Positions 1 through 64,000 of a stretch of 64,000 nt of DNA are shown piece after piece. Each line of letters begins with the position of its first letter. The first letter of the stretch is position 1. Source of the DNA: Bilabrum cf. latius (taxonomy: Eukaryota); NCBI GenBank assembly GCA_965178125.1, contig OZ237763.1, positions 744,001 through 808,000 on the forward strand, given 5' to 3'. Below the pieces are notes generated by a model. That model searched no databases and was not told where the DNA came from. It was given only the letters and a program-made list of their open reading frames with translations. The position numbers and the translations under genes are program-made.

Positions 1-1394
1 TGCCCATGGCGTGGGCTGCCAGGGCAGGTGAGCTATGCCTGCCTTCTTGCGGTGAGGGGCGCGATGGCGGTGGGGGGCTGGAGGACGAGGCAGAGGGGCT
101 CCCAGCCCAGCCGCCCTCTCCCTTTCCCCGTTCTACCCCTGCCCCTGCCCCCTCCCCCTCGCTCTCCCCCTCGCCCTCCCGCATGGCCTGCCTCAGCATC
201 GCCTCGGCAGCCGCCCTGCCCTCGGCTTCCTGCGCCTCCCGAAGGCCTCCCTCCTCGTCCATGTGCCACCGCCAGTCTGGGGAGGACGGGGCAAGGGGTT
301 GATCGTCAGCAGCAGCACCACCGCTAGCTGTAGCACGGGCTGCAGGCGATGGCGACGGGCTGTGGCTCGCAGGGTGTAGGCTCGTAGGGCGTGACGGCGA
401 TGCTGCTCCGCCCCCGCTGCTAGCTTCACTGGGCGCAGCCACCCTCGGCAAAACCGCCCCCGAGATGCCCTGCGATCCCTGCCCGTGCCCGTGCCCGTGC
501 CCCTGCTTGGCCAGCCACTGCCTCCTCATCTCTACAGAGGCACGGAGACTGCTCGGGCTGTGCCGGAGGAGGGCCTGGGAACCGGATACCACAGTGGCGG
601 GAGATGTGATGGGGCTGCCCTGCTGCTGCTGCTGCTGCTGCTCTGCGTTGCTTCTGTGCCCCTGCGAGGGGCTCGGTGCAGCGCTGCTTGAGCTCGCAGC
701 GGTGCTGCGGCTGCTTCCGGGCCCAGCCGGATACCGCCCCTCCGAAGCAACGAGATCAGGATTTGTCTTTCCGTTGTGCGCTTGGTGCGCTGCACTTCTC
801 GCATACTCCTATACGTGAGACTTGCCAGCAGATCCGGGATCAGTCCCGCCAGATGTGGCCCTCTCGGGGTCTTCCTCGACCCAGGCGGATTCCAGCGCCG
901 CCTCCTTGGCAAGACCAGCCCTCTACTACTCTCTTTTGCTGTCAACGCTGTCTCTCCAACGCACCTGTCTTTGATAAAACTCCGCCGCTTCTCCATTGCT
1001 GATCTTGCTCGCTTTCACAGGAACTGCGTTTGGCGCGTCGTCTGCAATACCCCTGTCCCTATCCGCATGCCTGCGTAATGTATCCATCTTCTGCGCAGAG
1101 TGACAGGCCCGACCACCGATAGCAAATCTGACAGGCTTGAGCGAACACTTATAAAAATGCAAACCAGCCATTCGTGCGCAAACACTAGCAACAACTTGAA
1201 CGACGTTCCTACCATACAATCCGAATACTTCTTGTGCAACATAATCTCACTTTTGCAATGTACGCACTGTGCTTCTGTTGCCGCTGCATGAATCCATCAA
1301 GGCTGGGTGAGTCGGCGGAACCATCTTGCCCAGAGTGGTTTTCCTGGACATTAAATCCAAGATGGCCAAAATCGTGGCCAACTGAACTTGACAT
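1..1394 (-). CDS. Hypothetical low-complexity/coiled-coil protein, two exons (1394-1251, 1090-<1), runs off the left edge
   Basis: ATG at 1394 (MSSSVGHD...FMQRQQKHSAYIAK), GTGAGA...CGCAG intron, then KMDTLRRH...FYQRQVRWRDSVDSKRE**RAGLAKEAALE. The frame stays open to base 1 if TAG (926, 923, 809) is read as Gln. Confidence 0.65.
1091..1250 (-). other. Putative spliceosomal intron (160 nt, phase 0)
   Basis: Minus-strand AAA|GTGAGA donor and TGCGCAG|AAG acceptor join two ORFs in frame. No homology support. Confidence 0.55.
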
Positions 1395-1632
1395 CGGACC
1401 GCAGTGGACTCGGGCGGCGCGCTTTGCCGCCCAATACAGCAGTAAATGCCGTCTTGGGAAGGCGTGCAGGTCGCTCCAAAATGACACGTTACAAAATACC
1501 ATCGAGCGAGAGATTTTGGTATAGACTAATCCAAGAAAGAACATGATACCTACGTTTATTGGCTTGTCGGCCTGACTGCCTTGCTACTGCCGCGGGCATC
1601 CGTTGCTGTTTCGAGATTGGCACCAGTAGCCA

Positions 1633-3699
1633 ATGCGAGGCGGCTGTTGCACTTCGGCCAGCCTTGCCCTTCTTATTGTGGGCGTAACGGCATCATCCGC
1701 GACACGAGAAAGCGTTCTGCGACAGGTTAGTGACCCTCCAGTGGGATGTGTCGTAGATTCGCTGTTCCCTGAGCACCAAACTCTGGTTGGTGACCGCTCC
1801 ATGAGAGTTGTCACTCAAATTGCGTGCTCAAGTGGCGACGCAGACGCTGCAGCCCTATGCATTGACATATTTCGCGGTCCTAACGCTACAGATACTACCA
1901 GACACGATGCCTGGTCCGAAGGCGAGCACCTCGGTAGGTCATGCAGGAGCGGAGCACCCTCTCCGAGTTACCCAGCAAGCGACGAGAAGCCGATGGATAG
2001 TAGGACAAAGCGGTCTGTGTATTCGATCACTGTCCGCATACCCCAGACTGGACCGTACAAAGTAGTAGCGTGGCTCCCGTCTGCACCACCGGGCCAGTTT
2101 TCTGCGCCCGCGTCTCGGCAGCCGCGGGCACCCCGGCCCCGGCCCGGCACGAGGCTGGAGCACTGGGTGGCCGTGAGCGACGGGGCGCCGAGGGCGGGGC
2201 CATGGTGGATGCGCTTCACGGGAGCGGGGCAGGGGTCCAGGGCGGGGCCCTGGGGCTGCGGGAGCGATGCCTCCTGCGTCGCAGGGAACGTTCGTCGCGA
2301 GGTGGGGGAATGGGCGGGCCACGTCCCCTTGGCGGGGACACAGGCGCAGGGGGGAGCACACGGCTTTCAAGCACCCCCCGCGTTTGCCGGCCCGACCATG
2401 CGGGTGCCGGATGGGTTGCCGGCAGGTGCTCGCGGGTCCGTCTCTGAGCCTGGCACCGGCAACGGCCGCGTGCTGGACGTGCTGCTGGTGGTCTTTGCCG
2501 GGGCCGGCCGGTCCGCCCACGTGCGCCGCACGGTGGACCATTTCATGACAGGGAGTGCCCCCTTGCCAGTCCGCAGGGCGGTCTCTGGCGATCACGACCC
2601 GCAGGAGGAAGGCTTCGGGGGGAGAGGGGATCTGTTGCGGGTGCGGTACCACCCCATGCTGTTCCTGTACTCCGGGGGCACTGCTGCCTACGAGGACGCT
2701 CCGTGGTGGGAGCGGGCGGTGGTGGTGAGGGCCCCCGGCCGCATGAAGTGGTGGTACGTGCAGCGGTTCCTGCACCCCTCCGTCGTGGTGGGGACCACCG
2801 GGCAGGAAGGTGCATCGCACGATGGTGCGCGGCGGGACGGGTACGACTACGTGGTGCTGCTGGACGATGACGCGGACTTTCTGGGGGACGCTGGCAAGGG
2901 GGTTCGGGGCCGGGAAGAGGCGGAAGCGGGCATGAGGAACAACCCCCCCTCGTAGGGGGCGCTGCTGGACCCTTAGCGGCTCGGGCGCGCGCTGTACCGG
3001 CTGGGGGCGGACCTGGCGCAGCCGGTGCACGCCACGGCGCGGGGCAGCTCCTTCGAGCTGGTGACGGCGGCCGGTCTGGAACGTATGAGAGAGGGAGGGG
3101 GGCAGAGGGGGAGAGGGGGGTCGGGGCCCGTGGTGGGTGCAGTGCACGGTGGTGTGCCCTCGCGGCACTGGTCCCGGCTCCCCACGGCCCGTGGCCTGCA
3201 GCCCCGGGGTGGGAACGACCCGGCCTCGTGGTCCGCTGCTTCCGTGGACGCGGGCGGGGCCGGGAAGCTGCTTGGGGACCCCAAGCCGGGGGCAGTTCCC
3301 CTGGGGGAAATGGGGGGCGGCCCCATGACGGAGATGCGCGCGCCTCTGCTGGCGGCCCGCAGTACCTTTGTGGAGTGCGGGCCCGCGGTGGCTGTGTCTC
3401 GCAAGGCGTGGACGTGCCTGTGGGGCCTGCTGCAGGGAGACCTGGGCAGCGGGTACGGGCTGGACCTCGTGTGGTCCCGCGCGTGCGCGCCAGGGAGCAC
3501 CTTTTTGCTGGCGGGGGAGCGAGTCTGGCATAGGGATGGAAAGGAGGCTTCGGGGAAGCACCCGAACTTCCACGCGCTGGCGGTGGCGGAGGGCGCGGCG
3601 CTATTCGGACGGCTGGGCCTGGCCCCCGAGATGCCACGAGTACTGGAGCTGGTTGAGGGCGCTGTGGGCGGCGGAGACGGCGGATGGGAATTGACTTAA
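1633..3699 (+). CDS. DUF707-family protein (putative glycosyltransferase-like), N-terminal signal/anchor, 688 aa
   Basis: ORFs 1633-2955 and 3025-3699 share a frame and are separated only by TAGs at 2953 and 2974. DUF707-type motifs lie on both sides: KWWYVQRFLHP, YDYVVLLDDD, LAQP, FVECGPAVAVSRKAWTCLWGLLQGDLGSGYGLD. Ends in TAA. Confidence 0.8.
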
Positions 3700-3860
3700 T
3701 GCCATTGGAACACACAAACAAGATGGTTTCAAATGAAATGGCCACACTCTTTAACCTGCAATCACGCCAGCCCAACAGGCCGAATCGATCGAAGACCGCC
3801 TCTTCGTCGTGCACTTCGCGCACTACACCCTCTTTACCTCCTTGGCTTTCTGACAAGCAT

Positions 3861-5468: not shown

Positions 5469-7238
5469 TCACTCGCTGTCCTCTTCCACCTCGACCGCCT
5501 GTCCAGAGCCTAGCTGCCGACCGCTCGGTGTGCGTGGGGGTAGTGTACCCCTGCTGCCGGGTGGTGATGGTGCTCCATTCCCAGGCGCACCTCCACCCCC
5601 TAGGCTCGCAGCATCGGCCTGAGACTGCTGCTGTGTTTTGCCCTGTCGTCCCACCGCTCCAGTCGCATCGGTTGACCGACTCAGCGCGCCTGCACCGGAC
5701 CCCGAACCCACTCCCGAGCCACCTTGGGTGCCTGCGCGAGTTCCTGGGCCGGTTGCACCACCGTGCGATGCACCTACCTCGACACGACCCTTCGATCGCC
5801 TAGGACCACGATGGGAGGAGCCGCCGCCGCTGCCCCCTTCTCTTCTCCCTCCACCCCCCAGGACCCCCGTTGCAGCCCCTGCCCGCTGCCTGATTGCACC
5901 CACGCTGCCCGGCCGGTGCAGCTCCTGGTGCTTGTCGCACTCTGTGCCATCGTGCGGTGCAACCTAGCCGTCCACACCCTCCAATGCACTCGACAGGTCC
6001 CGCGTACCTTCACCGCTGGCAGTACCACCCGATCCTGTCCCCGCCCCCGCCCCCGCCTCCGCCCTAGCCGGCAGCGTGGGGGCCTAGTGAACGGGCGATT
6101 CGGGTGGGCTGGACGCCTTGGAGGGAGGACTCGCGTGCGGGGTTCGAACCCGGGCGCCGCCACTCCCAGCCAGCCACGAAAACACCCCGAACACTCCCCC
6201 GGAGCTGGACTCTTCCTGCTTGCTGGCAGCCCCCGAGGGCGTGTTCCCTGGCTGCAGCCCGTCCGCCTTGAGCACCGGAGCCCCCTTGACCGGCCTCAGA
6301 GCCCCGTCCTCCTATGCCAGCCCAGCCATGATCAGGTGCTGCTGGGCGCTGCGGACCCACCTCCTGTACTTGTCCATCTTCACCTTGTGCGCCAGGTATC
6401 CCTCATGCAGCTTCCTGTAGCTGTCGTCCAGCCTCCTCTTGTCGTCCAGCAGGTCCTCGTAGCCCTGCTGCCGGGAGGCCAGCTGCACCTTGGCCTCCAC
6501 CAGCCGGCCCTCGAGGTCCTTCTGCTGCTCCCGCTCCCGGGCCAATTCCACCTGGATCTGCTCCAGCTCGTCCTCCAAATCGCTCCTGGCCTGCTGGCTC
6601 TCCGCGAGCTTGGCTGTGGTGCGGCCCAGCCGCTGCAAGGCCTCCTCCATCTCGATGGGGTACGGCTCCGGCGTGCCGGGCGCCGTGGAATGCCTGGACG
6701 ACGACCCGACAGTCGACGCGGCGGCGGATTCAAGCTGCTTGCGCAGCGTCTCTGCTTGCTCAGTGGCGTGCCGGAGCTGCCTCGCCATGATGTCTCGCTC
6801 CCGACGTGCCGCAGCGGCTGCGGCCGCTCCTTGCTCCCCCCCCTGCTTCAGAGAACTCTGCAGCGGCGCTACAAAGCCGTGCCCCTCTACTATGCTGACC
6901 ATTTCGTCGGACAGGGTAGCCCCTTCTTCGTAGGCGGCCCCCAGTGCACTGAGGCATTCTGCCGCGTGGTCGTCGACGTCTTGCATTTCTTGCTTTAGAG
7001 CAGCATTCTCGGCGCGATGCTACCGCAGCGCATCTTTAAGCCGTTCGTTCTCTGCCTATATTAAAGCTACCTCTGGGTGCAATACATGTGGGTGAACATC
7101 GCCTGCAGTTAGAGCAGGGTCAGAGCGCGTGGATGCCAGCTCCGCGACAGAGGCGTCCTCGAAAGACTCTGCCTCCTCAAGCATGGCATCAAGATCTAGA
7201 GATGAAACCCTAGACTTGTTACGCGGGCCCGAAGCCAT
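5469..7238 (-). CDS. Coiled-coil protein with disordered C-terminus, 589 aa
   Basis: ORFs 7056-7313, 6312-6986, 6084-6275 and 5469-5903 share one frame and are joined across 5 TAGs (7056, 7020, 6312, 6084, 5964). ALI*AENERLKDALR*HRAENAALKQE reads as a continuous heptad pattern with Q. Ends in TGA. Confidence 0.75.
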
Positions 7239-7360
7239 GGCTTCGCGGGCACGGTGGCCGAAATCATCGGCTGGCCTTGCCCAGGCTGCACCGCACGCAA
7301 GTTGGTGCCACAAAGTGCAGGCGCTGCGACGCCACGTCCATACTGGGAGACCTGCGTTAC

Positions 7361-8782
7361 ATGAGTCATGATATAAAGCAGGTCTCTATTCAAGCATGCT
7401 TGAGGGCAGCATTCCAAGAGCGTGCGATGCGGCAGGCTGCCCTGATGTGGGAGCCATTGAGCTCTGCTGCTGGATCGGTCCGCATTCCACCGTCGTTCCT
7501 GCAATTTGGGGGCAGTGCAGCAGCTACTGTATTGAAGGAAATGCGAGGCGCGGCTGGCTATGATTTCAAAAAGAAGCCAGCTCGAAAAGCAAAGGCAGAC
7601 CCGAAGTCGGGAACGGCAACTGCAGATCACGACGGCGGTAGCGCAAGGTTGCTGCTTGATTTGACGTCCGATCGGAGTCCAGCTGAGCTACTCGCTGCTG
7701 TACTGTGCCGCTGGTGGCCTCAATCTGAATCGAGTGGCGCCGGCTCTGCCGTTGAAGCCATGGCTGCCACAGGTAGCTCAACCACAAGCGAGTGCGAGTG
7801 GCCCAGCTACACCGGGCCAGTGGCGGGGTCCATCGTTGACCTTGGGCGCGTGCGTACTGCTACTGCTGCTAAGCGGGGCGCTGTAGTAGAGGCGATACAT
7901 GCCTGTACCAAGCACGCGGCCCCGTGCACCGTGCCGGCCTCTACCCCCACAGCTGCGACCAGCTCCCCCACACGCGCATCTGCATCAGGGGGTGCCACAG
8001 CAGCTGCAAAAGTACCTGTGCGCGCAACAAGCAGCGCAATCCCTGGCATAGTTCCACCTGGCTCGCCAATGGACGAAGCCGATGGCGATTCCAGTGGAAG
8101 GAAGGCCACTGCTGCTGGAGATGGTCTGGTTCCTGCACGACCGTGCGATGCACCGACACGATGCGAAGTGGAGCACTTAGTGCGGCAGTGTTTGGGGCTG
8201 CTAGCAGCAGAGGAAGAGGAGGGAGAAGGGCGAGGGCAAGGTGGTTCCACCGCTGGCGGTGCACCATCAGAGGCCCCAGGACCGGTGGCATCTCTACCAG
8301 CTGCTGCGTTAGATTCAGGCACAAGTTTAAAGGGAAGGGGCGCGTCGGGAAAGCAACAAGCTGCGGCGGGCGAAGCAGAGGCAGGCAAAGCAGGAAATAG
8401 CTCGTTGCCAGCCGCAGCGGGAGCCAGTGGAGGAATGGGGCAGGAGGGCGGACCCGGATCAGAGTGGGCAGGGTACTCTCCCCTGGCGCGAGATGGGCTG
8501 CGGCTGCTGCAGTCCATGGGTGGATGCCCGGGCGCAAGCGTGCTGATGGGGCAGCGGGAGACGGTTGCTTCGCTGGCCGGCGCCCCTCCTCCGCTTGCTG
8601 TGCTGGTGGGAGCGTTCGTGCGAGACTGCCCAGGGTACAAAGTTAAACCGAAAAAGGGCGGGGTGTAGGAAGGTGCTGGTGCTGGTGCTGGTGCTGGTGC
8701 TGGTGCTGGTGCTGGTGCTGGTGCTGGTGCTGGTGCTGGTGCTGGTGCTGGTGCTGGTGCTGGTGCTGGTGCTGGTGCTGGT

Positions 8783-8831
<49 letters not shown>

Positions 8832-9232
8832 CTGGTGCTGGTGCTGGTGCTGGAGCTGGTGCTCGCAGCAGATCCCCGGCCCATCCAGAGCACAGGCGCG
8901 GGAAATGGCTGACTGTTGGTGCTCGTGCGTTGGCCAAGCACGCTCACAGGAGCAGCGAGTCTTTCTGGGGAGTGGCTAGCGGGCCGCAGGAGGTGCAGAA
9001 CGCGAGGGCGGTGCGGGTCCTAGGCAGGTTGCTGCGGCGAGTGGCCTGGTGGAACTGGCACCCACTGCCCAACGGTCCCTACGTGTTCGAGATTAGGACG
9101 CCTGAAGGGTATGGGGCCAGGTGGGGAGTGGATCAGAGGGCGAGCACGGTGGCGGATGCCGGCGCAGTGCACTTTCGAGGCTTTGTGGAGCCGCACATAG
9201 AGGGTGGGCACGAGAGCAAGTGGAGGCACTGA
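7361..9232 (+). CDS. Conserved protein with a C-terminal domain like that of plant ASCH-domain proteins, 623 aa
   Basis: ORF 7277-8668 continues through TAG 8666 and a (Gly-Ala)32 tract into LTVGARALAKHAHRSSESFWG...FEIRTPEGYGARW...FRGFVEPHIEGGHESKWRH-TGA. This motif series matches my recollection of the C-terminus of plant ASCH-containing proteins. Confidence 0.7.
8672..8863 (+). repeat. (GGTGCT)~32 hexanucleotide microsatellite encoding poly(Gly-Ala)
   Basis: Directly visible, with a few GGAGCT variants; in frame within the 7361-9232 CDS. Confidence 0.95.
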
Positions 9233-9356
9233 TGTGGAGACCGCAATTGCACTGCGCTCGCGCGGTTATCCTCGCTAGAGTCTACGCCAACGTGAGTGGC
9301 TCGAGCGCTGGAACCCGGAGCCGCCAATCCGTACCTTACCCATCACCTCCCGCTCT

Positions 9357-36513: not shown

Positions 36514-36544
<31 letters not shown>

Positions 36545-52934: not shown

Positions 52935-54498
52935 TCACGAGCCCTCCTCCCCCGCTGCTCCCCCGGTGGCAGCCCCAGAGCTAGGCACTGTTCCTCCCCC
53001 CCCCTCCTGCTCCTCCTTCTTGGCAGCCTCGATCGCGAACACGAGCGCCCTGTCCACCTCCTTGGGCAAGGGGGGGAGGGCCTGCTTGGGCACAAGGAAG
53101 GTGGACAGGTCGAACAGGTCGGTGAACACCTTGTGCCGCGCCGCTGCAGACCGCAGGTAGTGGTACCCGCTGCTGCCCCCCGTGCCCATCTTGGCTCCAA
53201 GCATGCGGTGCACCATGATCGCGTGCCTCTGCCGCCACAGGGCAGACAGCTCGTCGATGTCCACTAGCAGCTGCAACAGCCGCTTCGGCTGCTACAGCAC
53301 GGGGGCATCGTGGTGCAGCATGATCAGCAGCGCCGACTTGAAGGCCTTGTAGGAGAGCCTCCTCTCGCCCGTCTCTCGCAGGGCCTCGTAGGCGGCGGGG
53401 TCGAAGAGCTGCCTGAAGTGCGCCTGCTGCTTGGCGAGGTCGGCGAGCAGCTCCTCCCGCGTCTTGTCGTCGATCGCATCGTCGCTCTTGATGTGCCGCT
53501 CGTCCTCGCTGAACATGTGCTCCAGTCCCTCGCTGTAGTACTTCCAGAAATCGAAGCGCTGCCCCGCGCTGGCCGCGATCGACTCGGCAGCCGCTCCGCC
53601 CCCGACGGCAATGGAGGCCTCCAGCTTGGCAGCAGCGTCACTCGCAGCCGTGCCACCGTCCGAAGGTTCGCCACTATCCTCTGCGGCTACCCGCTTGGGG
53701 GATGCGCACATCTCGTACTCGATCTGGTCACCGTCGCCGACTGGCTTCTTGCGCGGCTCGAACGCCTTCACTACAGGGGCACGCTACAGCCAGCCATCCA
53801 AGAGCTGCAGCAAAGATGGCTTGTCTTCTGATGCTGCGACCTTTTTGGCGTCTTCTTCTTTCAAGAACGTCTTGTAATCACGGCGGCCGTACTTCAGCCG
53901 GATGCTCTTCGGAAGCCCCAGGCGATTCTCCAGGATACGCCACTGGACCGACTAGAACCCACTTGCTGGAAAGAGAACGTCCCGAAATGTCAAGAATCCC
54001 ATCGGAGACATGGTCTCCAAGATGCTCAGCTGCTGCACGAGCACCCTCTGGATCTCGGTTACCCGGTGCAGTCTCTCGCAGATGGTCCCAATGTCCTTTT
54101 CAGGAACATGAGGCTGGCCCAGCATTTCACAAACGCTGTCAATTTCATGCAGGATCTGCTTAAACCACAACTCGTAAGTCTGCGTGGCCATAAAGGGGGT
54201 CGAAACGGCGACTATTCGAAGGATCGCTTGCACATCAAAATTCCAAAAACGAGGACAACACCGCACTATTTCTTACCTAATGAATAATGATAAACAACGT
54301 TTCATCATGAGCCTCGTTGCCAATCTGCTTGGTCACGGGGTGCTGGGCGCTCAGCACCTTGTCAAGTCCAAGGTACTCGCCGTAGTACAATGGCGACTCC
54401 AGCCGTCTCTTGTGCACCGTACTACGCCAAGCATCAGCGTCAGATGGAGCATCTGCATGATCAGCCGATGCGGTCCTTGGTGGGGTGCTCGGATCCAT
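52935..54498 (-). CDS. TDO2: Tryptophan 2,3-dioxygenase, two exons (54498-54277, 54179-52935), 488 aa
   Basis: [120 protein letters not shown]. 4 in-frame TAGs; ends in TGA. Confidence 0.95.
54180..54276 (-). other. Spliceosomal intron (97 nt, phase 0) in TDO
   Basis: CAT TAG|GTAAGA...CACGCAG|ACT TAC. Removal restores the conserved H-Q-x-Y-E-L-W-F-K-Q motif. Confidence 0.9.
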
Positions 54499-54643: not shown

Positions 54644-57600
54644 TCACCACAGGGGCTGCATCAGACGCACCGCAGCCGGATCTGCCAAGCTCAGCGCCGC
54701 CAGCCCCTCCCTGGCCACTGCGTCGAGCTTCCGTCGCAGCAGCTCCCGCCCAGCCGCGGTTTCCCAGGCACTCAACAGTGCCGCAGCATCGTCCTGACTA
54801 GGACCACTCGATCCTACCGTGCAGACTGCCCAAGGATCCGTGCAGGGCCCGCACCCATCCCCCATCTCGCCCTCACCCTCACCCTCACCCTGGCCCCCAG
54901 CCCCCCTGCCCCCGAAGCTTAGCAGACCCATGGCGGCCCTGCCCACCAGCAGAGGGACTCTAGGCACCGCAATGCGGTGCATCTTGGCCCGGGCAGCCCA
55001 GAGAGCCTACTGCACCACACCTGCAGCAGTACCTGCTGGCTGTCCCTGTCCCTGTCGCTGCTGTAACGCTCCATCCACCGGCAGTGCCAGCGCCCGCTCG
55101 ACGAGTGCGAGCCCCTCCCCCGCGGCATGTGTGCCTTGCGACGCATCATCCTCCTTCTTGCCCTTGCCCTTGCCCTTGCCCTTGCCCTTGCCCTTAGCTT
55201 TGTCTTTGCCTTTCGATTTGCCCTTGCTGTTGGCCTTGCTATCCCCCCCATCGGCCTCCTCCTCCCCATGCTTCTTGCCGCCATCGCCTCCTGCACCGAG
55301 TCCATCGTCCCAGCGAGACAGAGACACCGCCTCCTCCGCCTCGGCTTGCGCGATCCAATCGAGCCCCAGGGCGTCCTAGCCCACCCACGAATCACCCCCT
55401 GAGCCAGCCCCATCCTCCTCCTGATCCCCGCCCCCGGTAACCCCTGCGTGCCCCGCCCCGCCACTGACGGGATCACCCGCTTGCCTAGTGGCCCAGGCAC
55501 CGGCGCTCTGCAGCCAGGCGGTGCGCGCACCGGTGGCCTTCGCGAGCTGCTGGCTCCTCCTGCACGCCCGGGGTGTGGCACACGGCAGCAGCAGGGGATC
55601 GACCCCGAAGGCCATGGCCGCGTCAGCCAGAGAGGGGAACACGCAGGGGGCACCTCGCTTAGCCGGCCCACGCGCCCTCCTGGACGCCAGCCACGCCTCC
55701 TCCCTTTCGGGACCCCTGCCCAGCCCGCGGACCGCGCCTCGCCGCAGCACGCCATCAAAGGCTGCCAAGCCATCGGGATCAGCCGCGCCAATCCCCTCGG
55801 CGACTCCATCCGCCGCCTTCCCCTCCTCCTCCTCGCCCTCGTATGCCGGCTCTTCCTCGCTATCATACTCCACATCTGACTCCGAGTTATCCGTCAGTGC
55901 ATCGCCCTGCACTGCGGCCGCCTGCCGCACGGGGAGGGCAGGTCCGTCCCAATCCGCCAGCGAGCCCACCACGTCGGCAGGGGCCGGGTGCAGCCACAGG
56001 GGCAGGGCCAGGGGCAGACCAGCCGCAGGGGGCGGCTGCAGCCCTCGGCCGCCGAGCCCTTTGGCCTGCCCCCCGCTGCCGCCCGCATACGCCTGCCTCG
56101 CCGCTGCCTCTGCCCTCCTTCGGGCCCTCCCCAAGGCCTGCATGGCCGCCCTGCGTCTGTCCTCCTTCGCGACAGCGTCCTCTTTCTCACCGTCCTCCTC
56201 GCTGCCCTTCTCCTGGGCCTTCCCCTTGCCCTTGCCATTGCCCTTGCCAGCTGTCTTCTTCTTGCCGCACTTCCCCTTGTCCTCGACCTTGTCCTGCTAC
56301 TCCTCATCCCCAAGCGGAACCTCCCCCCGCGCGGCGCCCTCCTCCCTCATCCTCGCGGCCCTCGCCTCCTCCATCTCGGGGGGAAGCACGCTGCCCTCGT
56401 CCTCGGGGATGCCAGCGTGGGGATGCCAACCGAAGCGCATGGCGCGGCTTGCACCGCCGTGCGATGCACCATCACCATTCCCGGCGGCAGGCACGCACAC
56501 GGCGTACAGGAACAGCCCCCAGCCCAGCCCCTGCGAGGCCAGAGGTGCGCCGCCACCACCGGCACACGCGAATGCAGCGGCCGGCGCCCCGCCCGTCAGG
56601 TCTTCCGCGCCAGCAGCCCCCGTGCCCAGCACAGCCACCGAGGAACAGCCCAGAGTCGCCTCCAGCAGCTCCTGCCCACTCCACACGCGGCCCTGGGAGG
56701 ACCCAGAAGCCTCCAGCTCCACCAGCTCCTGCATCGTGGGATCCTTGCCCTTGCCCTTGCCTTTTCCGCGGCCCTTTGTGCTTCCAGCTGCCTTGCCCAG
56801 CGGCCCCGCGGTGGCTGGATCGCTGGCTCTCGCCCTGGCCAGCCTCTCCTCGGCGCCAGCCAGCAGATCCGGGGGCGCAGCGGGCAGGATCGGCTGCGCG
56901 AGTGCCAGCCGGGGCCGCATCAAGGCGAGCGGGGACACCTCCAGAGGTGCCTCCAGTGCACTCCCCATGCCAGACGCGGGCCCCGGGCCAAGGCGTACCC
57001 ATCCGGGTCCTTGCAGCGCCAGCCACGGCTGAGGTGGGGGTGTGGGGAGGATTCCAAGCGACTCCAGGGAGGGCCGGGCCGCCGTGGCAAGCAGGGCGGC
57101 CAGCAGCCCCGGCTGCAGGCGGGGGTCCACGGATGTTCCTATGGGAGCCGCAGCGAGAAGGTCCATCTCCGGCGCGCCAGTCCGCGCCCGGCCGGCCCCC
57201 AGCATGCGGCCGATGGGGGCAGGCGCCCCGGCCTGGCCAGGAGCACAGGCCCGCAGCAACACCTGCTCCTTTTCACGCCCCCATCCGGATCTGGGGCTAG
57301 ATCCCGAGCCCGAAGGCAGCGGGATTCGCTGCACGATCGTGCCCTGTACCCTCCCGTCGTCTCCCCCCGTGCGCACCGCCGCAGCCGCAGCCTCCCCCGC
57401 CGCCCCGCCCTCCCGCTCGGCCTCCTCCTCCCCGACCCCCCTGTCTCCTGCCTCCTGTCTGGCAGCCACGGAAGCAGCCGCGCCCGCCGCCAAGGCAGAC
57501 GTCTCCTCGGCGTCCTCCCCCTCGCGCCGCAGCGGAACATGCAGTCGCGCCGCGCCGCAGCCGCTCTCCACCCACCGCGCCACGGCGTCCCCCTCCCCGC

Positions 57601-60600
57601 CCATGGGTTCCAGCGCGGGCTCGAGGGGGGCCGACAGGCAGTGCCCCAGCAGCTCCGATTCCGGCTCCGGATCCTCCTGGAAGGGCCCCGGCTCGGCCAG
57701 CGCGCCAGCCCAGGCAGCGGCCTCCGGGACTTCTCCCGGGTGCATCCACAGCCCCAGGGGACAGTGGGGCGCGGGCACGGCTGCAGGGTGGGGCACGGGG
57801 ACGGCCGCCCCGCCTGCAGTCTGGCCACCAGCATTGGCAGTGGACGCAGATGTGGACGAGTCTGGGAGGCCCCTGGGTGCCCCCGGGCCCCCGAAGAGGG
57901 AAGCGAACGTGTGCTCCGGGCCCGACCCCGGCAGCACCAGGCCCTGAAGCAGCCCAAGATCGCTGGCCTCTGCTGCATGTTCTTGGCTCCTCTCCTCTGC
58001 CAGCAGCGGGCTGCTGCTCCACAGGGCCTCGGCGGCCTGCTCCTCCTCCTGCGAGGTGAGGGTCTTGCCTGCACCTGCACGTGCACCTGCACGCCCCCTG
58101 CGGCTTCTCCCAGCGCTCCTCCCCTTCCCCTTCCCTTTGTCCTTGCTCTTGCTGCTCGACTTGGAAGCGGAGGACGACAGCCGGGGGAGGGGGAAGAGAG
58201 GCATCACCGTGCAATGCGCGCGAGGGGCGGGGGGCACTGGCACGGCAGGCAGGCGCGGCCGCAGCCCGGCTTCACCGGCGGATGCTCCTTCCAGACCGAC
58301 GAGCTGCTGCTGCTTTCCCCCCTGCAGAGGCCCCCCCGAGGCACTGGAGCCCCCCCGCGCCGACGACTGCGCCGAGTCCAGCCGAGCAGACCGCAGTGCC
58401 GCCCTCGCGCTCTTGTCACCCTGCCCCCCCCGGGGGCTGTCGAAACCAACCCCTGCGCCTGCACCTGCCCCTGCCCCTGCACCCTAACCCGTGCCACCCT
58501 CCCGCCTGCCTCGCCTTCCGCTAGCTGGCTGCGATTGACCAGCCCCAGCCCTCGCGCCTGGCATGGGCGGAGGAGGAGTCGCAGCTCTGGGCCTCAGCCA
58601 CGACTCCTGCACCTCGGCGCGAGCAGCCGCGTCTGCTGCGTCTCGCGCCACCATGGCCTCCAGCGCCGCCCTTTGCTTGCCGCCCTAATCCTACCCACCC
58701 TCCCCATCCCCCCGAAGCCCCTCGCCCCCATCGGCGTCCAGCGCCTGCGCCTCCGCCGCCACCTGATCCAGCCGGTCCCTCAGGGCCCTCAGCCGGGCCG
58801 CAGCGCGCTTGCGCACCACCACCGCCCGCGCCACGGCCCTCAGTCTCGCCAGACGGGCCCTCCTCTCCGCCCACGCCCTGGACTCGGAGTCGTACATGTC
58901 AAACCGAGGGGCGCCGCGCGGCAGCACCGCGGATTGCGGAACCACCGCCACGTGGGGCGGGGCCTTCCTGCCCGCCCCAGCCTGCTGTGCCCCGACCCCC
59001 TGGCTCGCACCGCCCTCCGGCCCCCTCAGGGCAGCGAACCGCCTCCTCCTCCTGGCCCGCCCCACGGCCAGCGCCTCCGCCTCCCGCAGCACCCGCCGCA
59101 CCCTCTCCACCTCCAGCAGGTGCTCCTCCAGCGGCCTGGGCTCCCCGCGCCACTCACCACCGGCCTGAAACGCCCTCGCCCTTTCCCCCGCGCGCACTGC
59201 CTCCAGCGCCGACACCAGCACCAGCTCCCGCGTGTGCCGCCGGTCCCTCGACGCTGGAGGCAGTGCCAGCGCAGCCCCCCCGAAGATGGGCACGGGGCCC
59301 CCCAGCCCGGCCACGCCCTCCCCGCCCTGGCCCGCCCCACTCGTCACACCCTCCGCCCCATCGGGGGGCCCCAGTGCCTTGGTGGCCTCCAGCTCGTCCT
59401 CCTCCCGCTCCACCCGCTCCCTGTCCCTGCGAGCCAGCCCGCGGGTGCTGCGCCCGCTGAGCCCGAGCCCGCCTGCGGGAGGGGGCAGCCGGGCCTCGAA
59501 CGCCACCGCTGCCTCCTCCACCACCCGCACGGACCTGGGCAGCGGCTCGTGGTCGGGCGTGTTCCTCAGCGCCTCCAGGACGAAGTCGGCATCCACAGGC
59601 CTGCCCTCTGCGGCCCCGAGGGCCTGTCCCAGCCACGAGGCCGCCACTGTCTCTTGCAAGAGAGCAGCCGGTCCCACCCCGGGGCCCACGCTCCGCACGG
59701 CACGGTGGCCACCCCCCTCGCCCTCGCCCTCCCCGTCCTCCTCCTCGCTGTTGGCCCCGCCCGCTTGCGCCCCCGCCAGCTTCCTCTGCGCCTCTCTCTC
59801 CTGCCGCCTCAGCGCGCGCTAGGTCGCCACTCGAAGAGGCACCTCCGACGCCTTGCCCCTGCCCGGCCGGTCTGACAGCAGGCCGGTCATGGCGGCGTAC
59901 GACTTGGTGTCGGCCGGCACGCGCACCCCGTCCACCACGGTGAATCTCACCGCCCGCTCCGCCTCCGCCCGCGCCGCCCTCTCCCCGCCCAAGTCCTCCG
60001 GCCTCACCACCAGCGCCCCCGATCGCACCAGCTCACGGTCAGCCCGCCTGGCCGCCCGGGCCCTCTCTGCCCTCATCGTGGTGGCCCTGCGAGCACCTGC
60101 CGCCTCCAGGGCGTGCCCACCCGGGTCATCGGCCGCCCCTGCGCCCACCCTCCGCCGAGAGGCAGCCAGCTGCACCTCTGTGCCCACGTCCATGGGCCTG
60201 AAGGCCAGCTGCGGCTGGGTGAGGGAGGTTGCTGTTCCCTGGCCTCTCCCGTGGGACGGGGGCAGGGGCGCACCCACGGGAATGCCCGAGCCTGTGAGGT
60301 CGCACGTGTACGGCACGAAGCCGAACTGGTCGCACTGCACCTGCAACTGCGAGGTGCACGTGACGGCGTCCGAGGGGCGAAACGTCACTTGTACCCGCAC
60401 CTCGCCGCGGGCAGGCACCGTGCCCTCTGCGGGGAACACGCGGAAGGCCGGGTGGGGCATCACGGTCTCCAGCTTGAACCCGAATGAGGCATCCGAATCC
60501 GACCGGAGCACCATCCGCCGGGAGGACTCGATGCCCAGCTCGCAGGGCCCGAAGTCCACCCGCCTCGGTACTCCCAGCCTGCCCAGCGACGGGTGTGCGT

Positions 60601-61372
60601 GCAGCTGCACCGCCAACCAAGGCGTGGGTCCGTCATCACTCGTCACACCGCTGCCCGCCCTACCCCTGGAGGTTCCGGGCATCAGCCTAACCCGGAACTC
60701 GTCCGTGTGGTAGGCCCCTGTTCCATGCTCCTCTTCCGCAGCGCTGCCAGAGGGGGGCGCCCTGTACACCACGATCGCTTCCTGGGTCATGCCGGGGGCG
60801 ATCAGCCCCGCTGCAGTGTACTGCACCTCGAACAGCCCGTCCTCCCCGTTGGGCGGCCTCAACTGCACCCGCGCCGGACCGCTGCTGGCGTTCAGCACCC
60901 GCACCCTCTGCTCCGCAACGGAGCCTGCAGGCACGCCAGCAAAATGAACAGACTATGGGATTACTCTGAGCGCGCCTTTGGACGCGTGTGGCTGATCCCC
61001 ATGGCGCGGTGCACCGTCTTCGAGCAAGCCGTCGTCTACCGGGCTGTCTTTGCTCTCCTCGCCGTCACCACCCGCGTATGTTGCGCTAAACAGGGCCTTT
61101 CCGGACGGTGGTAGTGGAACAGACGCGTCTGCGTCGAGGGCTGATCGTACTGCCCTTGAGCGGCGCACGAACGGGATCGCCTTGCTGCCGGCCGGTGCCC
61201 TCATCCTGCGCTGTTGCAGAGCTGTAGATACCACGGAGCTGGATGGCTCCAATCCGTCGACACCTAGTAGCATTTTAGAAGACTCCTTCCCCTGTGCGTT
61301 GTCATCGATGCCGCTCAGACCGACAGAATCATCGGAGAGATCGTGCTCGACCGAAGCGTGGTCCAGTGACAT
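54644..61372 (-). CDS. CFAP221: Cilia- and flagella-associated protein 221 (PCDP1)-like, 2242 aa
   Basis: Seven ORF fragments share one frame, joined across 8 TAGs. Two N-terminal ASH/Ig-like domains (VIP*SVHFAG..VRVLNAS..IAPGM..LHAHP; PHPAFRVFPAEGTVPARG..VTFRP..DQFGFVPYTC), PRFDMY...W..R...L.R....R..VVRKRAAARL (IQ-like helix) and DALTDNSESD match my recollection of PCDP1. Ends in TGA. Confidence 0.75.
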
Positions 61373-61640
61373 CCCCCTCGGGTTAAAATGAGTTCGTCAA
61401 GCAGCCCCGGTATAGTTGCGTCTATGAATAGCTTAATGTAGGTCACCGTGAGACGTAAAGTCTCAGCCGAGCTTCAATATCGTGCAAATCAAGTCCTAAC
61501 GAATAGATCAGTATTGCGGAACCTCTGTTTGCGCGGCGACAATGCATGGTCCGGACTCCGGAGCATTAATTCCGCCCCCATATTTTTCCGGAGATGCAAC
61601 TATTCCCTGCAGCCTATTGAATCGAGGGCTTTAAGACGCT

Positions 61641-63545
61641 ATGGTGCATCTGGCGCACCTGGTTATTGTTCAAGATGGATTCTTTGGGTCCACCGGGTCA
61701 ATGGAGCGACTGTCTGGTCTCTTGAAAAAGGTCCTTGGAAATGATGTCATTGTAATGAGATCGTGCTCGTCCCATCCCTGGGGAGCCTATCCATCTGTGG
61801 CAGGCACTTTAGACGGAATCCCTGCTGCCGGCTGCAGACTTGCCGATGAAATTGAGCGAAGCTTGCACGGAGCGCTGCGGTCGGTGGTCGGCGGTGACTT
61901 TCAGAAGAGCGGAGGTGCCGTCCACCAAGCGTGCAAGATAGCGTTGAGCCTGGTAGGTATGTCACTGGGGGGTCTGACATGTAGGTATGCAATGGGCGAG
62001 CTGGTTCGCCGCAGCGATGCAATAGGTGCCAGCATGAGCAGCTCAAGCCAGGGCAGCGGGCAAGCCGAGAAGACAACGTTGAACTCGATATGGGTAGGGT
62101 ACCGCCGCGGATTCGGAGTAGTGCGTGAAACGAGTCAGCGAAAATCACCTGGCGACGCCCTGCTCCAGGAGCCAGCGCCAGTCCTCGTCCAGCTGCGCAA
62201 CTTCGTCTCCCTGGCGAGTCCCCACCTTGGGGTCCACGGGGCCGTGCCGGGGTGCCTGGGACGATTAGCGCACGCGGGCTACGGGGGACCCACCGTGCAG
62301 CAGCTGCTAGTTGTGGACGACGCCGGAGAGAAGGAGAGGCAGCTGCAGGGGGAGTACACAGCTGCGAGGCCCAATGTGCTAGGCAAGGACAAGGACAAGG
62401 GCAAGGGGAAGGGAAAGAGAATGAGCGAAGCATAGGGTGAACTGAGTAGGCTGCGATCTAGCGGTCGATTACTGGCGCAGATGGCGGTGCCAGGGGGCGT
62501 GTTTGGCCGTGGATGGGGCTCCTTCAGGCGGCGGGTGCTGGTGGGGCACGAGGTGTGCGACTCGAGAGTGCCGCTGTGGTCCTCGACTGTCGCTGGGAGG
62601 CCGCTGCAGCGGGGTATTGGTGGCAATCGCCATGGTAATGCGGTGGAGGGCGATGAGCCCAGCGAGGTGCATGGAATTACCTCTGCTGCTGGTGGCAGCG
62701 GGGCTGTTGCGCCATCGTGGCAGCTGCAGCTGGTCAGAGCCCATGCGCTAGGAGTGCAAGCCGCTTTTTCAGCGCCGAGTGGGGGGCCGAGCAGCAGCCA
62801 GTCCAGTGAGGCTCGCAGGGTTGGAACGAGGAAGCACAGGAACTCTGGCAGCAGCACCACTGCAGTCGAGCCGGCGGAGCTCCCGCCACGGTCTACATCC
62901 CCAGGCCGTGCGGAATCCGCTGCGCTGCATGGGCCGATTGCAGCGGGGGAGCATGTCACAGGCACGTTCTGGGTCAGGCACGGGTCAGGTGCAGAGGCAG
63001 GCAGAGACGCCAAGGATACGGGGTCTGCTGCAGAGGGAGCACCCGACACGGAGTGGGGCATGGGTCAGGTAGCTGAGGCCCTGCTGTCTGGTTTGAAGCA
63101 CACTTTTGGGTACATCGCGAGCATTCGAGCGGACAGAGGCGCCGGCACGGGCGGACACAGTGGTGGTCGCAGCGGCAGCCCATCCGCCGGCGCCGCCCTG
63201 TCGCACGATCTCAAGGAGGCAGAGCGACTCGCACCTCCACCGGACAGGGCAGACGATGAGGGCCAGTCCATGGCCCTCGAGACGGCGGCTGCCTCTGGCC
63301 TGTGGGCCGCAGCCTAGGCTCACAGCGGGCCGCAGGGAGACACTGCCGTGGTGCTGCTGCGGGCCGATGGGGAGCCGTGCCTGGCGGGGACTCACGCGAG
63401 GACAGCCATGAAGTGCGAGCTGCTGGTTGGATTGGAGGCAGCCCGGCCGTGGCTGCCGCTCGAGTGCTGCCGCCGGGCAGTGAGATGCGATGGAGGGCTG
63501 CACATGCAGGACCTGCAAGGAGTAGCTGCACTGATGTTGCGATGA
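61641..63545 (+). CDS. DUF676-family putative lipase/serine esterase, 634 aa
   Basis: HLVIVQDGFFGS, TLDGI...G.RLADEI, LSLVGMSLGGLTCRYA (nucleophile elbow), NFVSLASPHLG, then after TAG 62433 FRRRVLVG...DSRVP. Second TAG at 63315; ends at TGA 63543. Confidence 0.8.
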
Positions 63546-63706
63546 CGGGGCATCCCAGATGCGATGGAGGGCTGCACATGCAGGACCTGCAAGGAGTAGC
63601 TGCACTGATGTTGCGATGACGGGGCATCCCAGATGCGATGGAGGGCTGCACATGCAGGACCTGCGAGGAGTAGCTGCACTGATGTTGCGATGACGGGGCA
63701 TCCCAG
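63483..63706 (+). repeat. 3 x 74-bp tandem repeat spanning the stop codon of the lipase gene
   Basis: Units start at 63483, 63557 and 63631 (AGATGCGATGGAGGGCTGCACATGCAGG...GATGACGGGGCATCCC); one substitution in copy 3. Confidence 0.92.
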
Positions 63707-63755
63707 CTCCAAGTTTGTCATTCGATGTCGGTTCGATTCATTTCAAGCAAGGGGT

Positions 63756-64000
63756 TTACTTCTTTTTCCCCTTCCCCTTCCCTTTCCCTTTCCCGCCAGC
63801 CCCACCCGCTGCACTCGTATCCGCCTGCAGCCCAGCATCCGCCCCTGGAGGCGCCTCCCCTGCCTGCAGATAGAAGATCCAGGGGGGCAGCCCCGCCCCC
63901 TCTCGCCCAGTAGCCCGAACCAACAGCTTACTGCTGGCCTCAGCCCGCCCCGCCCGCTGTGCCTCCTCGGCTCTCTCCGAGCAGCTCACCTCGATCCCCG
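63756..64000 (-). CDS. 3' end of a gene entering from the right edge; possibly HYDIN-like C-terminus
   Basis: Open frame ...SSKLLVRAT...PPWIFYLQAGE...GKGKGKGKGKKK-TAA. The KLxV...WxxYL pattern only loosely resembles the HYDIN C-terminus. Confidence 0.5.
   Translation of the reverse strand, partial: GIEVSCSERAEEAQRAGRAEASSKLLVRATGREGAGLPPWIFYLQAGEAPPGADAGLQADTSAAGGAGGKGKGKGKGKKK

What the first reader, a model, noticed from the sequence alone, without database searches (positions are those of the whole stretch)
1..64000. Non-canonical nuclear genetic code: TAG is a sense codon (Gln) while TAA and TGA remain stops
Seen: in 17 of 20 genes, consecutive standard-code ORF fragments lie in one frame and are separated only by TAG (manual count about 115). 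I found no in-frame TAA or TGA in these models. All 19 observed gene ends are TGA (15) or TAA (4). With TAG read through, genes tile the window without overlap, and conserved domains (kinase, DENN, DUF707, DUF676, TDO, CFAP221) continue across TAGs. Established: UAA and UAG are almost always reassigned together in nuclear codes. UAG=Gln alone (NCBI table 15 type) is known from very few lineages, such as the fornicate Iotanema spirale and some phyllopharyngean ciliates. Inference: this GC-rich flagellate does not look like either, so it may be an independent reassignment. It would need a tRNA-Gln(CUA) and an eRF1 that reads UAA/UGA but not UAG.
Basis: partly seen in the sequence, partly recalled or inferred. 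Interest (0 to 1): 0.97.

Follow-up and report, generated by a model that had tools for sequence, protein, structure and literature searches.

The report
Nuclear code reading TAG as glutamine
This GC-rich eukaryote reads the stop codon TAG as glutamine while still ending its genes at TGA or TAA, a rare kind of genetic-code change known from only a handful of lineages.

Summary
With TAG read through, 15 complete gene models plus one partial gene tile the window. They contain 115 in-frame TAGs in 18,470 codons, and 12 end at TGA and 3 at TAA. Coding potential continues unchanged after TAG but falls after TGA and TAA. Long ORFs obtained by reading TGA through are overlapping shadows of the same genes.

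TAG most likely means glutamine. In tryptophan 2,3-dioxygenase (TDO), two TAGs sit at columns that are Gln in 120 of 120 and 115 of 115 homologs. Against an environmental relative about 70% identical in protein, which also uses in-frame TAG, the 8 orthologous pairs involving TAG are 4 TAG/CAG, 1 TAG/TAG and 3 TAG/other.

Intron-less contigs in two public runs keep all four TDO TAGs unchanged. This argues against RNA editing and assembly error.

Not tested, because no genome is held: a tRNA with anticodon CUA, the release factor eRF1, and the organism's lineage. Whether TAG ever also terminates translation is not excluded.

The code type (UAG=Gln, UAA and UGA stops) is already known from Iotanema, Protocruzia and some phyllopharyngean ciliates. 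I therefore file this as a probable new member of a known kind. I found no paper describing such a code in an organism like this one.

The parts
2..1246 (-). Partial gene that runs off the window; 3 in-frame TAGs
   Evidence: Frame 0 scores best of six frames. No Pfam family.
1576..3699 (+). DUF707 gene; 2 TAGs after the first ATG; ends at TAA
   Evidence: Pfam DUF707, E 1.2e-17. Coding score is +0.187 before the TAA and -0.219 after it.
5469..7565 (-). Coiled-coil protein gene; 6 TAGs; ends at TGA
   Evidence: Weak Rab11-FIP3-like match below the Pfam cut-off. TAG and stop counts.
7040..9232 (+). Gene of unknown family (730-codon ORF); 2 TAGs; ends at TGA
   Evidence: Its frame scores as coding in the stretch it shares with the next ORF.
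8913..15788 (+). Gene of unknown family (2291-codon ORF) with a C-terminal tandem peptide repeat; 13 TAGs; ends at TGA
   Evidence: Its first ~160 codons are not coding in this frame, so the true start lies further in.
15960..17405 (-). SAP-domain gene; 6 TAGs; ends at TAA
   Evidence: Pfam SAP, E 8.5e-11. Coding score is +0.269 before the TAA and -0.032 after it.
17185..24732 (+). Gene of unknown family (2515-codon ORF); 27 TAGs; ends at TGA
24957..28346 (-). Gene of unknown family (1129-codon ORF); 7 TAGs; ends at TGA
28527..32291 (+). Gene of unknown family (1254-codon ORF); 6 TAGs, one only 3 codons before the terminal TGA
32688..33764 (+). AGC-type kinase gene, exon 1, carrying the Gly-loop GGFGRV and the VVK motif; 1 TAG
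   Evidence: Sequence read. Frame 0 scores best.
33765..33891 (+). Predicted 127-nt GT..AG intron of the kinase gene
   Evidence: GTGAGT...GCGCAG; both exons stay in frame. Not checked against reads.
33892..38529 (+). Kinase gene, exon 2. The N-lobe remainder and the C-lobe are separated by an insert of about 1000 codons; 7 TAGs; ends at TGA
   Evidence: Pfam Pkinase, E 3.5e-42, in 2 stretches.
38656..40497 (-). Protein with two cyclic-nucleotide-binding domains; 1 TAG after the second domain; ends at TGA
   Evidence: Pfam cNMP_binding, E 1.4e-27. PDB matches. The last 60 codons score +0.405.
41972..51076 (+). DENN-domain gene (3034-codon ORF); 24 TAGs; ends at TGA
   Evidence: Pfam DENN, E 1.3e-15. 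One TAG lies inside the stretch aligned to DENND1A/B.
51185..52759 (+). C2H2 zinc-finger gene (8 fingers); 1 TAG after the first ATG; ends at TAA
   Evidence: Pfam zf-C2H2, E 8.8e-51. Coding score is +0.041 before the TAA and -0.146 after it.
52935..54179 (-). Tryptophan 2,3-dioxygenase (TDO), exon 2. TAGs at 53954-53952, 53786-53784 and 53294-53292; ends at TGA
   Evidence: Pfam, 282 bits. Alignments. Coordinates.
54180..54276 (-). 97-nt GT..AG intron of TDO
   Evidence: Skipped exactly by one contig in run X6 and one in X7. Present in the X5 contig spanning 53457-55145.
54277..54498 (-). TDO exon 1. Its last codon is a TAG (54279-54277), opposite the invariant Gln of the H-Q-x-Y-E-L-W-F motif
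   Evidence: Gln in 115 of 115. The relative L001 has TAG at the same place.
54644..61396 (-). CFAP221-like flagellar gene (2250-codon ORF); 8 TAGs; ends at TGA
   Evidence: Pfam ASH and CFAP65-Ig. PDB FAP221 and CFAP221. The ortholog in L001 ends at the same TGA.
61635..63545 (+). DUF676 (putative serine esterase) gene; 2 TAGs; ends at TGA
   Evidence: Pfam DUF676, E 3.1e-11.

Best explanation
The window is nuclear DNA of a compact, 64% GC, intron-poor eukaryote. Its translation system reads UAG as glutamine and uses UGA (mostly) and UAA as terminators, as in NCBI table 15.

Shown here:
- TAG is frequent inside real coding sequence.
- TAG sits at invariant Gln columns and exchanges with CAG between orthologs.
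- TAG is retained in intron-less contigs.
- Coding ends at TGA and TAA.

Inferred, not shown:
- Decoding is by a tRNA-Gln with anticodon CUA, which would read UAG but not UAA.
- The release factor eRF1 has lost or weakened recognition of UAG while keeping UAA and UGA.

An environmental relative about 70% identical in protein shares the trait, so the trait is older than this species.
For: 1. Gene models. TAG-sense ORFs tile the window. Eight are 1000 aa or longer, against one under the standard code. At the off-frame stop rate their chance probability is 10^-8 to 10^-22.

2. Homology. 10 of the 15 complete models carry Pfam families on that strand and frame.

3. Coding potential, leave-one-gene-out codon model.
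- 77 of 83 inter-TAG segments of 60 codons or more score best in frame 0 of six frames.
- The 60 codons after 109 internal TAGs score +0.126, against +0.120 for the 60 before.
- The 60 codons after the terminal TGA or TAA score negative in 16 of 17 models.

4. Amino acid, across 120 TDO homologs.
- Column GF[TAG]SVQ is Gln in 120 of 120.
- The residue after His in H?xxE[LIMV]WF is Gln in 115 of the 115 that have the motif.
- Column VL[TAG]QP is Gln in 64 and His in 43 of 120.

5. Relatives.
- P0001, 95% identical, has Q, Q, Q at the three exon-2 positions.
- The syntenic relative L001 has TAG at the same H[TAG] exon end.
- L001 has two further TAGs where the window has CAG, and CAG at two window TAGs.
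- Both species end TDO at TGA, and end the CFAP221-like gene at QP(L/V)W followed by TGA.

6. Reads.
- Contigs in X6 (1380 nt) and X7 (1399 nt) join 54179 to 54277 with 0 other letters and cover all four TDO TAGs.
- X8 covers the three exon-2 TAGs with 0 other letters.
- X5 carries the unspliced form.
- Only one base (45647) differs in any of the 4 runs over 19.5 kb.

7. Usage. TAG makes up 115 of 887 Gln-type codons, or 13%.
Against: - One TDO TAG column, WL[TAG]RAP, is Glu in 91 of 120 homologs and Gln in only 1.
- Three of the 8 orthologous pairs involving TAG pair it with Ala, Ser or Met codons.
- The amino-acid call rests on two genes.
- No tRNA(CUA) or eRF1 was seen: there is no tRNA in the window or in L001/L002 and no genome is held.
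- Four of 15 models have a TAG 3 to 29 codons before the terminal TGA. That is 6 TAGs in the last 30 codons against 2.8 expected (P = 0.065). Termination at TAG in some genes is therefore not excluded.
- Only 3 credible genes end at TAA.
- X6, X7 and X8 are guessed by the tool to be RNA and are not on record as RNA. X6 and X7 belong to one study.
- It is unknown whether P0001's Gln positions are CAG/CAA or TAG in its DNA.
Confidence: 0.85

Rival explanations
1. Ambiguous code. TAG is read as Gln inside genes but also terminates some genes, depending on context, as in codes without dedicated stop codons.
For: Four of 15 models have a TAG 3, 6, 22 or 21-29 codons before the terminal TGA. That is 6 TAGs in the last 30 codons against 2.8 expected. 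My models read TAG through by construction, so a gene that truly ends at TAG would look like this.
Against: - The excess is not significant (P = 0.065).
- TAG is not depleted upstream of gene ends, whereas such depletion is reported for context-dependent codes (PMC11687900, passage).
- The two genes with an ortholog end at the same TGA in both species.
- Coding score after 109 internal TAGs equals that before them.
Confidence: 0.08
2. Both TAG and TAA encode Gln (table 6 type, as reported for Amoeboaphelidium), and TAA is merely rare because the genome is GC-rich. Only TGA would be a stop.
For: - UAA and UAG usually change together (PMC5304391 and PMC11687900, passages).
- TAA is the rarest stop triplet in the window: 136 against 437 TAG and 610 TGA.
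Against: - Reading TAA through lengthens none of the ten longest ORFs.
- If the TAA:TAG ratio matched CAA:CAG (168:604), about 32 in-frame TAAs would be expected in 18,470 codons. None is seen.
- Three Pfam-supported genes end at TAA, with positive coding score before it (+0.187, +0.269, +0.041) and negative after it (-0.219, -0.032, -0.146).
Confidence: 0.04
3. TAG is a sense codon for an amino acid other than Gln, such as Glu, Leu or Ser as in other lineages.
For: One TDO TAG column is Glu in 91 of 120 homologs. One window TAG pairs with a Ser codon in the ortholog.
Against: - Two TAG columns are invariant Gln (120 of 120 and 115 of 115), with Glu in 0 of 118 at the alignment column once P0001 and P0002 are set aside.
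- 4 of the 8 orthologous pairs involving TAG are TAG/CAG, a single transition that would be synonymous.
Confidence: 0.02
4. Artefact or non-translation: assembly errors, RNA editing of UAG to CAG, in-frame introns, or decaying pseudogenes.
For: None found.
Against: - Four runs from three studies show one differing base in 19.5 kb, and none at a TAG where they cover it.
- The intron-less TDO contigs keep all four TAGs.
- Only TAG interrupts the frames, never TAA or TGA, and no frameshifts are needed.
- A relative uses TAG in the same genes.
Confidence: 0.01

Closest known systems
Iotanema spirale (Fornicata) nuclear code: UAG=Gln, UAA and UGA stops
   Same: Same codon table. It is also a non-ciliate flagellate in which UAG and UAA have been decoupled (PMC5304391 and PMC9161772, passages read).
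   Different: The papers describe Iotanema as an endobiotic member of an anaerobic clade, known from a transcriptome. Its eRF1 has the GTS motif changed to GGS. This window is 64% GC and encodes TDO. That TDO needs oxygen is my own knowledge, not from a call. eRF1 could not be examined here. Relatedness was not tested.
Phyllopharyngean ciliates and Protocruzia tuzeti: UAG=Gln with UAA kept as a stop
   Same: Same reassignment of UAG alone (PMC11687900, passages).
   Different: In those ciliates UAA is the preferred stop and GC content is 27.4 to 53.6% (same paper). Here TGA ends 12 of 15 genes and GC is 64%.
Amoeboaphelidium protococcarum (aphelid): TAG and TAA reported to encode Gln
   Same: A stop-to-Gln change outside the ciliates (PMC6299283 and PMC5304391, passages).
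   Different: There both UAR codons are described as sense. Here TAA behaves as a stop. I raised this lead from recall and found no sequence evidence for or against relatedness.
Rhizaria sp. exLh (UAG=Leu) and Scotinosphaera (UAG=Ser)
   Same: UAG is reassigned while UAA stays a stop (PMC11687900, passage).
   Different: A different amino acid. Here Gln fits the invariant columns.
Phage 'genetic code 15' (TAG=Gln), for example in crAss-like phages
   Same: Same table (PMC9523058, abstract seen in the listing).
   Different: Those are bacterial viruses. This window has spliceosomal GT..AG introns, flagellar and kinase genes, and genes of 1000 to 3000 codons.

Membership tests
Nuclear code with UAG=Gln and UAA, UGA as stops (NCBI table 15 type) | In-frame UAG inside conserved protein-coding sequence | tested here: met
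   115 TAGs in 15 models. 4 lie in TDO, including positions inside the matched stretches.
Nuclear code with UAG=Gln and UAA, UGA as stops (NCBI table 15 type) | UAG aligns with Gln in homologs | tested here: met
   TDO columns: Gln in 120 of 120, 115 of 115, 64 of 120 and 1 of 120. 4 of the 8 ortholog pairs involving TAG are TAG/CAG. Only two genes were informative.
Nuclear code with UAG=Gln and UAA, UGA as stops (NCBI table 15 type) | UGA still terminates | tested here: met
   12 of 15 models end at TGA. TDO and the CFAP221-like gene end at the same TGA in the relative. Coding score falls after it.
Nuclear code with UAG=Gln and UAA, UGA as stops (NCBI table 15 type) | UAA still terminates | tested here: met
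   3 Pfam-supported genes end at TAA and coding score falls after it. There are 0 in-frame TAAs against about 32 expected if it were a Gln codon. The number of genes is small.
Nuclear code with UAG=Gln and UAA, UGA as stops (NCBI table 15 type) | UAG no longer used as a terminator | tested here: inconclusive
   No model needs a TAG stop. However, 4 of 15 have a TAG 3 to 29 codons before the TGA, and my models read TAG through by construction.
Nuclear code with UAG=Gln and UAA, UGA as stops (NCBI table 15 type) | UAG present in the mature mRNA (no editing) | tested here: met
   Intron-less contigs in X6 and X7 carry all four TDO TAGs with 0 other letters. That these runs are RNA is the tool's guess; the splice junction supports it.
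Nuclear code with UAG=Gln and UAA, UGA as stops (NCBI table 15 type) | A tRNA with anticodon CUA and Gln identity | not testable with these tools
   0 tRNA genes in the window and in L001 and L002. No genome is held.
Nuclear code with UAG=Gln and UAA, UGA as stops (NCBI table 15 type) | eRF1 altered so that UAG is not recognised (GTS to GGS in Iotanema) | not testable with these tools
   eRF1 is not in the window and no genome is held. The motif is taken from PMC9161772.
UAR=Gln code (table 6 type) | UAA also read as Gln | tested here: not met
   as set out above.
Context-dependent stop/sense codes | The dual-meaning codon is under-represented just upstream of true stops | tested here: not met
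   6 TAGs in the last 30 codons of 15 genes against 2.8 expected. The criterion is from PMC11687900.

The most novel reading that the evidence does not exclude
This is an independent, clade-wide reassignment of UAG alone to glutamine. It occurs in a GC-rich, aerobic, flagellated eukaryote lineage unrelated to ciliates and fornicates. It is present in several public data sets and in an environmental relative about 70% identical in protein. Unlike the ciliate cases it uses UGA, not UAA, as the main stop. Such an organism would give a new and possibly culturable system in which to learn how eRF1 and a tRNA(CUA) separate UAG from UAA.
Probability: 0.5. Interest if true: 0.85.

Novelty: new member of a known kind. 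Interest (0 to 1): 0.75.

Why it matters
UAA and UAG almost always change meaning together. Codes that separate them are rare and are used to study how release factors and suppressor tRNAs tell the two codons apart (PMC11687900 and PMC5304391, passages read).

A further case would add an independent data point on how such codes arise. It comes from a GC-rich genome where UGA is the main stop, and the trait is shared with a diverged relative.

There is also a practical consequence. Any standard-code annotation of this assembly will break nearly every gene into fragments, so it should be re-annotated with TAG read as Gln.

Tried and rejected
- GC3 periodicity as a frame marker was too weak to use.
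- ORF length alone was rejected as evidence, because reading TGA through also gives ORFs up to 2015 aa. Those overlap one another and mostly lie antisense or off-frame to the TAG-sense genes.
- PDB alignments of the CFAP221-like, DENN and cNMP proteins put their TAGs at variable or unaligned columns, so they say nothing about the amino acid.
- Lineage, by protein search: the cNMP search gave only 3 hits, probably because low-complexity words dominated the candidate list. The kinase C-lobe search gave 12 hits at 28 to 42% identity; the four named ones were a plant, a fungus, Naegleria and a fish. The nearest named TDO is Cafeteria roenbergensis at 45% in the alignment (48%'s table). None of this places the organism.
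- Lineage, other routes: no rRNA or other Rfam family is in the window. No whole genome is held. The protein atlas does not take proteins read under another code, and I did not pursue it.
- Aphelid lead: I raised it from recall, but the published Amoeboaphelidium code has TAA as sense, which does not fit.
- Sequencing runs: no RNA holder is listed on record. The kinds of X6, X7 and X8 are the tool's guesses. Stretches without cover in some runs (table 2) are not used as evidence.
- Literature: searches found no paper reporting UAG=Gln in a GC-rich non-ciliate, non-fornicate eukaryote. The library lacks most subscription journals.
- ORFs 4282-5427(-), 3867-4724(+) and 40525-41424(+) were dropped as gene models because no frame scores as coding.

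Full report
**What is in the window**

The 64,000 bases are 64% G+C. Under the standard code the longest stop-to-stop ORF is 1331 aa, and only one ORF reaches 1000 aa. With TAG read through, eight ORFs reach 1000 aa; the seven that became gene models are 3034, 2515, 2291, 2250, 1586, 1254 and 1129 aa (the eighth is the 1331-aa standard-code ORF). Reading TAA through changes nothing among the ten longest.

Reading TGA through also gives long ORFs, up to 2015 aa, so length alone proves little. All 20 TGA-sense ORFs of 600 aa or more overlap one another or the TAG-sense ORFs, mostly antisense or off-frame. They are shadows of the kind expected in GC-rich coding DNA. The long TAG-sense ORFs that became gene models tile the window without real overlap.

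**Gene models**

I modelled 15 complete genes and one gene that runs off the window. Ten of the 15 carry Pfam families on the modelled strand and frame:
- DUF707
- SAP
- Pkinase
- cNMP_binding
- DENN
- zf-C2H2
- Trp_dioxygenase (282 bits)
- ASH / CFAP65-Ig. The best solved-structure matches are the Chlamydomonas chains named FAP360 and FAP221 (E 1e-16 and 2.5e-16), then CFAP221.
- DUF676
- a weak Rab11-FIP3-like match, below the Pfam cut-off

From the first ATG these 15 models hold 18,470 codons with 115 TAG, 0 TAA and 0 TGA. Twelve end at TGA and three at TAA. Five more TAGs lie in TDO exon 1, kinase exon 1 and the partial gene.

In the two off-frames of the 18 first-pass models the counts are TAG 310, TAA 94 and TGA 559. 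At that rate, runs of 1129 to 3034 codons free of TAA and TGA have probabilities of 10^-8 to 10^-22.

**A test that does not depend on ORF definition**

I trained a codon log-odds model on all other genes (leave-one-gene-out). It gives:
- 77 of 83 inter-TAG segments of 60 codons or more score best in the model frame out of six frames.
- The six exceptions include both segments of ORF 4282-5427, which I then dropped as a gene.
- The 60 codons after 109 internal TAGs score +0.126 on average, against +0.120 for the 60 before. 87% are positive.
- The 60 codons after the terminal stop score negative in 16 of 17 models.
- The 60 codons before the terminal stop are positive in 16 of 17.

For the three Pfam-supported genes that end at TAA, the scores before and after the stop are +0.187/-0.219, +0.269/-0.032 and +0.041/-0.146.

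Coding therefore runs on through TAG and stops at TGA and TAA.

**Which amino acid**

TDO is the informative gene. It has two exons. Exon 1 (54498-54277, minus strand) ends ...LFIIIH-TAG, followed by GTAAGA. Exon 2 starts TYELWFKQ.

The table shows what 120 TDO homologs carry at the four TAG positions.

| TAG position | Residues in 120 homologs |
|---|---|
| After His in H?xxE[LIMV]WF (exon 1 end) | Gln in all 115 that have the motif |
| GF[TAG]SVQ | Gln 120 of 120 |
| VL[TAG]QP | Gln 64, His 43, others 11 |
| WL[TAG]RAP | Glu 91, Ala 13, Arg 8, Ser 6, Gln 1, Gly 1 |

The solved fly-like and human-like TDO chains show the same pattern. No residue but Gln fits the two invariant columns. The fourth column is variable and speaks mildly for Glu.

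TAG makes up 13% of Gln-type codons (CAG 604, CAA 168, TAG 115).

**Relatives**

P0001 is 95% identical and has Q, Q, Q at the three exon-2 positions.

Two metagenome contigs, L001 and L002, encode a TDO 69 to 71% identical. L001 is syntenic with the window. Its first 1559 bases encode the C-terminal part of the CFAP221-like gene (264 of 496 aligned residues identical), directly upstream of TDO.

L001 uses in-frame TAG too:
- It has TAG at the same H[TAG]|GT exon end.
- It has TAG at LLG[TAG]ERVPEKD, where the window has CAG.
- It has TAG at WL[TAG]SG, where the window has CAG.

In the other direction, two window TAGs face CAG in L001. Three face GCC, TCG and ATG, the last in a poorly aligned stretch.

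Of the 8 orthologous pairs involving TAG, 1 is TAG/TAG, 4 are TAG/CAG and 3 are TAG/other. Both species end TDO at TGA, and both end the CFAP221-like gene at QP(L/V)W followed by TGA. The trait is therefore shared by a diverged relative, and TGA is a conserved true stop.

**Editing or assembly error**

I laid four coded public runs from three studies on 41900-61400.
- One contig in X6 (1380 nt) and one in X7 (1399 nt) join 54179 to 54277. They skip exactly the predicted 97-nt GT..AG intron, with 0 other letters, and cover all four TDO TAGs.
- X8 covers the three exon-2 TAGs with 0 other letters.
- X5 holds the unspliced form, in a contig spanning 53457-55145.
- Over the 19.5 kb only one differing base is listed (45647, in X7).

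The kinds of X6, X7 and X8 are the tool's guesses, and X6 and X7 come from one study. The spliced junction is itself the best sign that these contigs derive from RNA. This argues against editing of UAG to CAG and against assembly error.

**Is TAA a stop, and is TAG ever one**

If TAA were a Gln codon used in the proportion CAA:CAG, about 32 in-frame TAAs would be expected. None is seen, and coding score falls after the three TAA ends. A table 6 type code is therefore unlikely.

Whether TAG also terminates some genes is less certain. Four of 15 models have a TAG 3 to 29 codons before the terminal TGA. That makes six TAGs in the last 30 codons against 2.8 expected (P = 0.065). This is not significant. 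It is also the opposite of the depletion described for context-dependent codes (PMC11687900, passage). But my models read TAG through by construction, so this point stays open.

**Mechanism**

The following is inferred, not shown. A tRNA-Gln with anticodon CUA would read UAG and not UAA, which would explain why UAA stayed a stop (reasoning given in PMC11687900). eRF1 would be expected to have lost UAG recognition, as proposed for the GTS to GGS change in Iotanema (PMC9161772). Neither could be examined. The window and L001/L002 hold no tRNA gene, no Rfam family is in the window, and no genome is held.

**Comparison with what is known**

According to the passages I read in PMC11687900, PMC5304391, PMC9161772 and PMC6299283:
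- UAG=Gln with UAA kept as a stop is reported for Iotanema spirale, Protocruzia tuzeti and two phyllopharyngean ciliate lineages.
- UAG=Leu is reported for an uncultured rhizarian and one ciliate lineage.
- UAG=Ser is reported for Scotinosphaera.
- Amoeboaphelidium is described with both TAG and TAA as Gln.

The present case has the same table as the first group. It differs from the ciliates in its GC content (64% against 27.4 to 53.6%) and in using TGA rather than UAA as the main stop. It differs from what is written about Iotanema in encoding TDO; that this enzyme needs oxygen is my own knowledge. None of this is a phylogenetic test.

**Lineage and limits**

I could not place the organism. 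The nearest named TDO is Cafeteria roenbergensis at 45% (48%), and the kinase hits scatter widely. Eight literature searches found no report of such a code in a GC-rich non-ciliate, non-fornicate eukaryote. The library is incomplete, however, and supplements were closed.

**Verdict**

It is a known kind of code, seen here in what is probably a new lineage, and shared with an environmental relative. Independence from the known cases, the tRNA and the release factor remain to be shown.

Noticed in passing
window 32688-38529 (+): The AGC-type kinase is split by a predicted 127-nt GT..AG intron (33765-33891). It also carries an insert of about 1000 low-complexity codons between the DFG and APE regions of the kinase domain. 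ORF 32688-33806 is therefore its first exon and not a separate gene.
   Followed up: partly
window 54180-54276 (-): The TDO intron donor follows directly on a TAG codon (CAT TAG|GTAAGA). The relative L001 has the same arrangement, so this TAG is conserved at an exon end.
   Followed up: yes
window 41972-43400 (+): The first ~476 codons of the DENN ORF hold about half of its 24 TAGs. They lie in the least GC-rich part of the window (56% in 40001-44000) and have only a weak coding score (+0.018). The true start of this gene may lie further downstream, or TAG density may rise where GC falls.
   Followed up: partly
window 3700-5468 and 40498-41971: These are two stretches of about 1.5 to 1.8 kb in which no frame scores as coding and no Pfam family was found. 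They may be intergenic, or hold intron-rich or non-coding genes.
   Followed up: partly
window 14400-15700 (+), 8600-8800 (+), 37900-38100 (+): There are long in-frame tandem peptide repeats: about 20 copies of an 18-residue unit at the C-terminus of the 2291-codon ORF, a (GA)n run in the 730-codon ORF, and VPGVSGSTGG repeats in the kinase. Most proteins here are very rich in low-complexity sequence.
   Followed up: no
runs X1-X8, window 51000-60999: The stretch is held almost whole (0.97 of sampled words) in runs filed under two different coded organism labels in two studies. It is held in part (0.42 to 0.69) under two more labels. In the laid runs about half of the contigs are only 95 to 99% alike. 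A second, diverged copy or strain may exist; P0001 at 95% fits this.
   Followed up: no
window 54644-61396 (-) and 55880-59875 (+): A 1331-aa standard-code ORF lies antisense to the CFAP221-like gene in the most GC-rich part of the window (74% in 56001-60000). It has no support as a gene and illustrates how long shadow ORFs arise here.
   Followed up: partly
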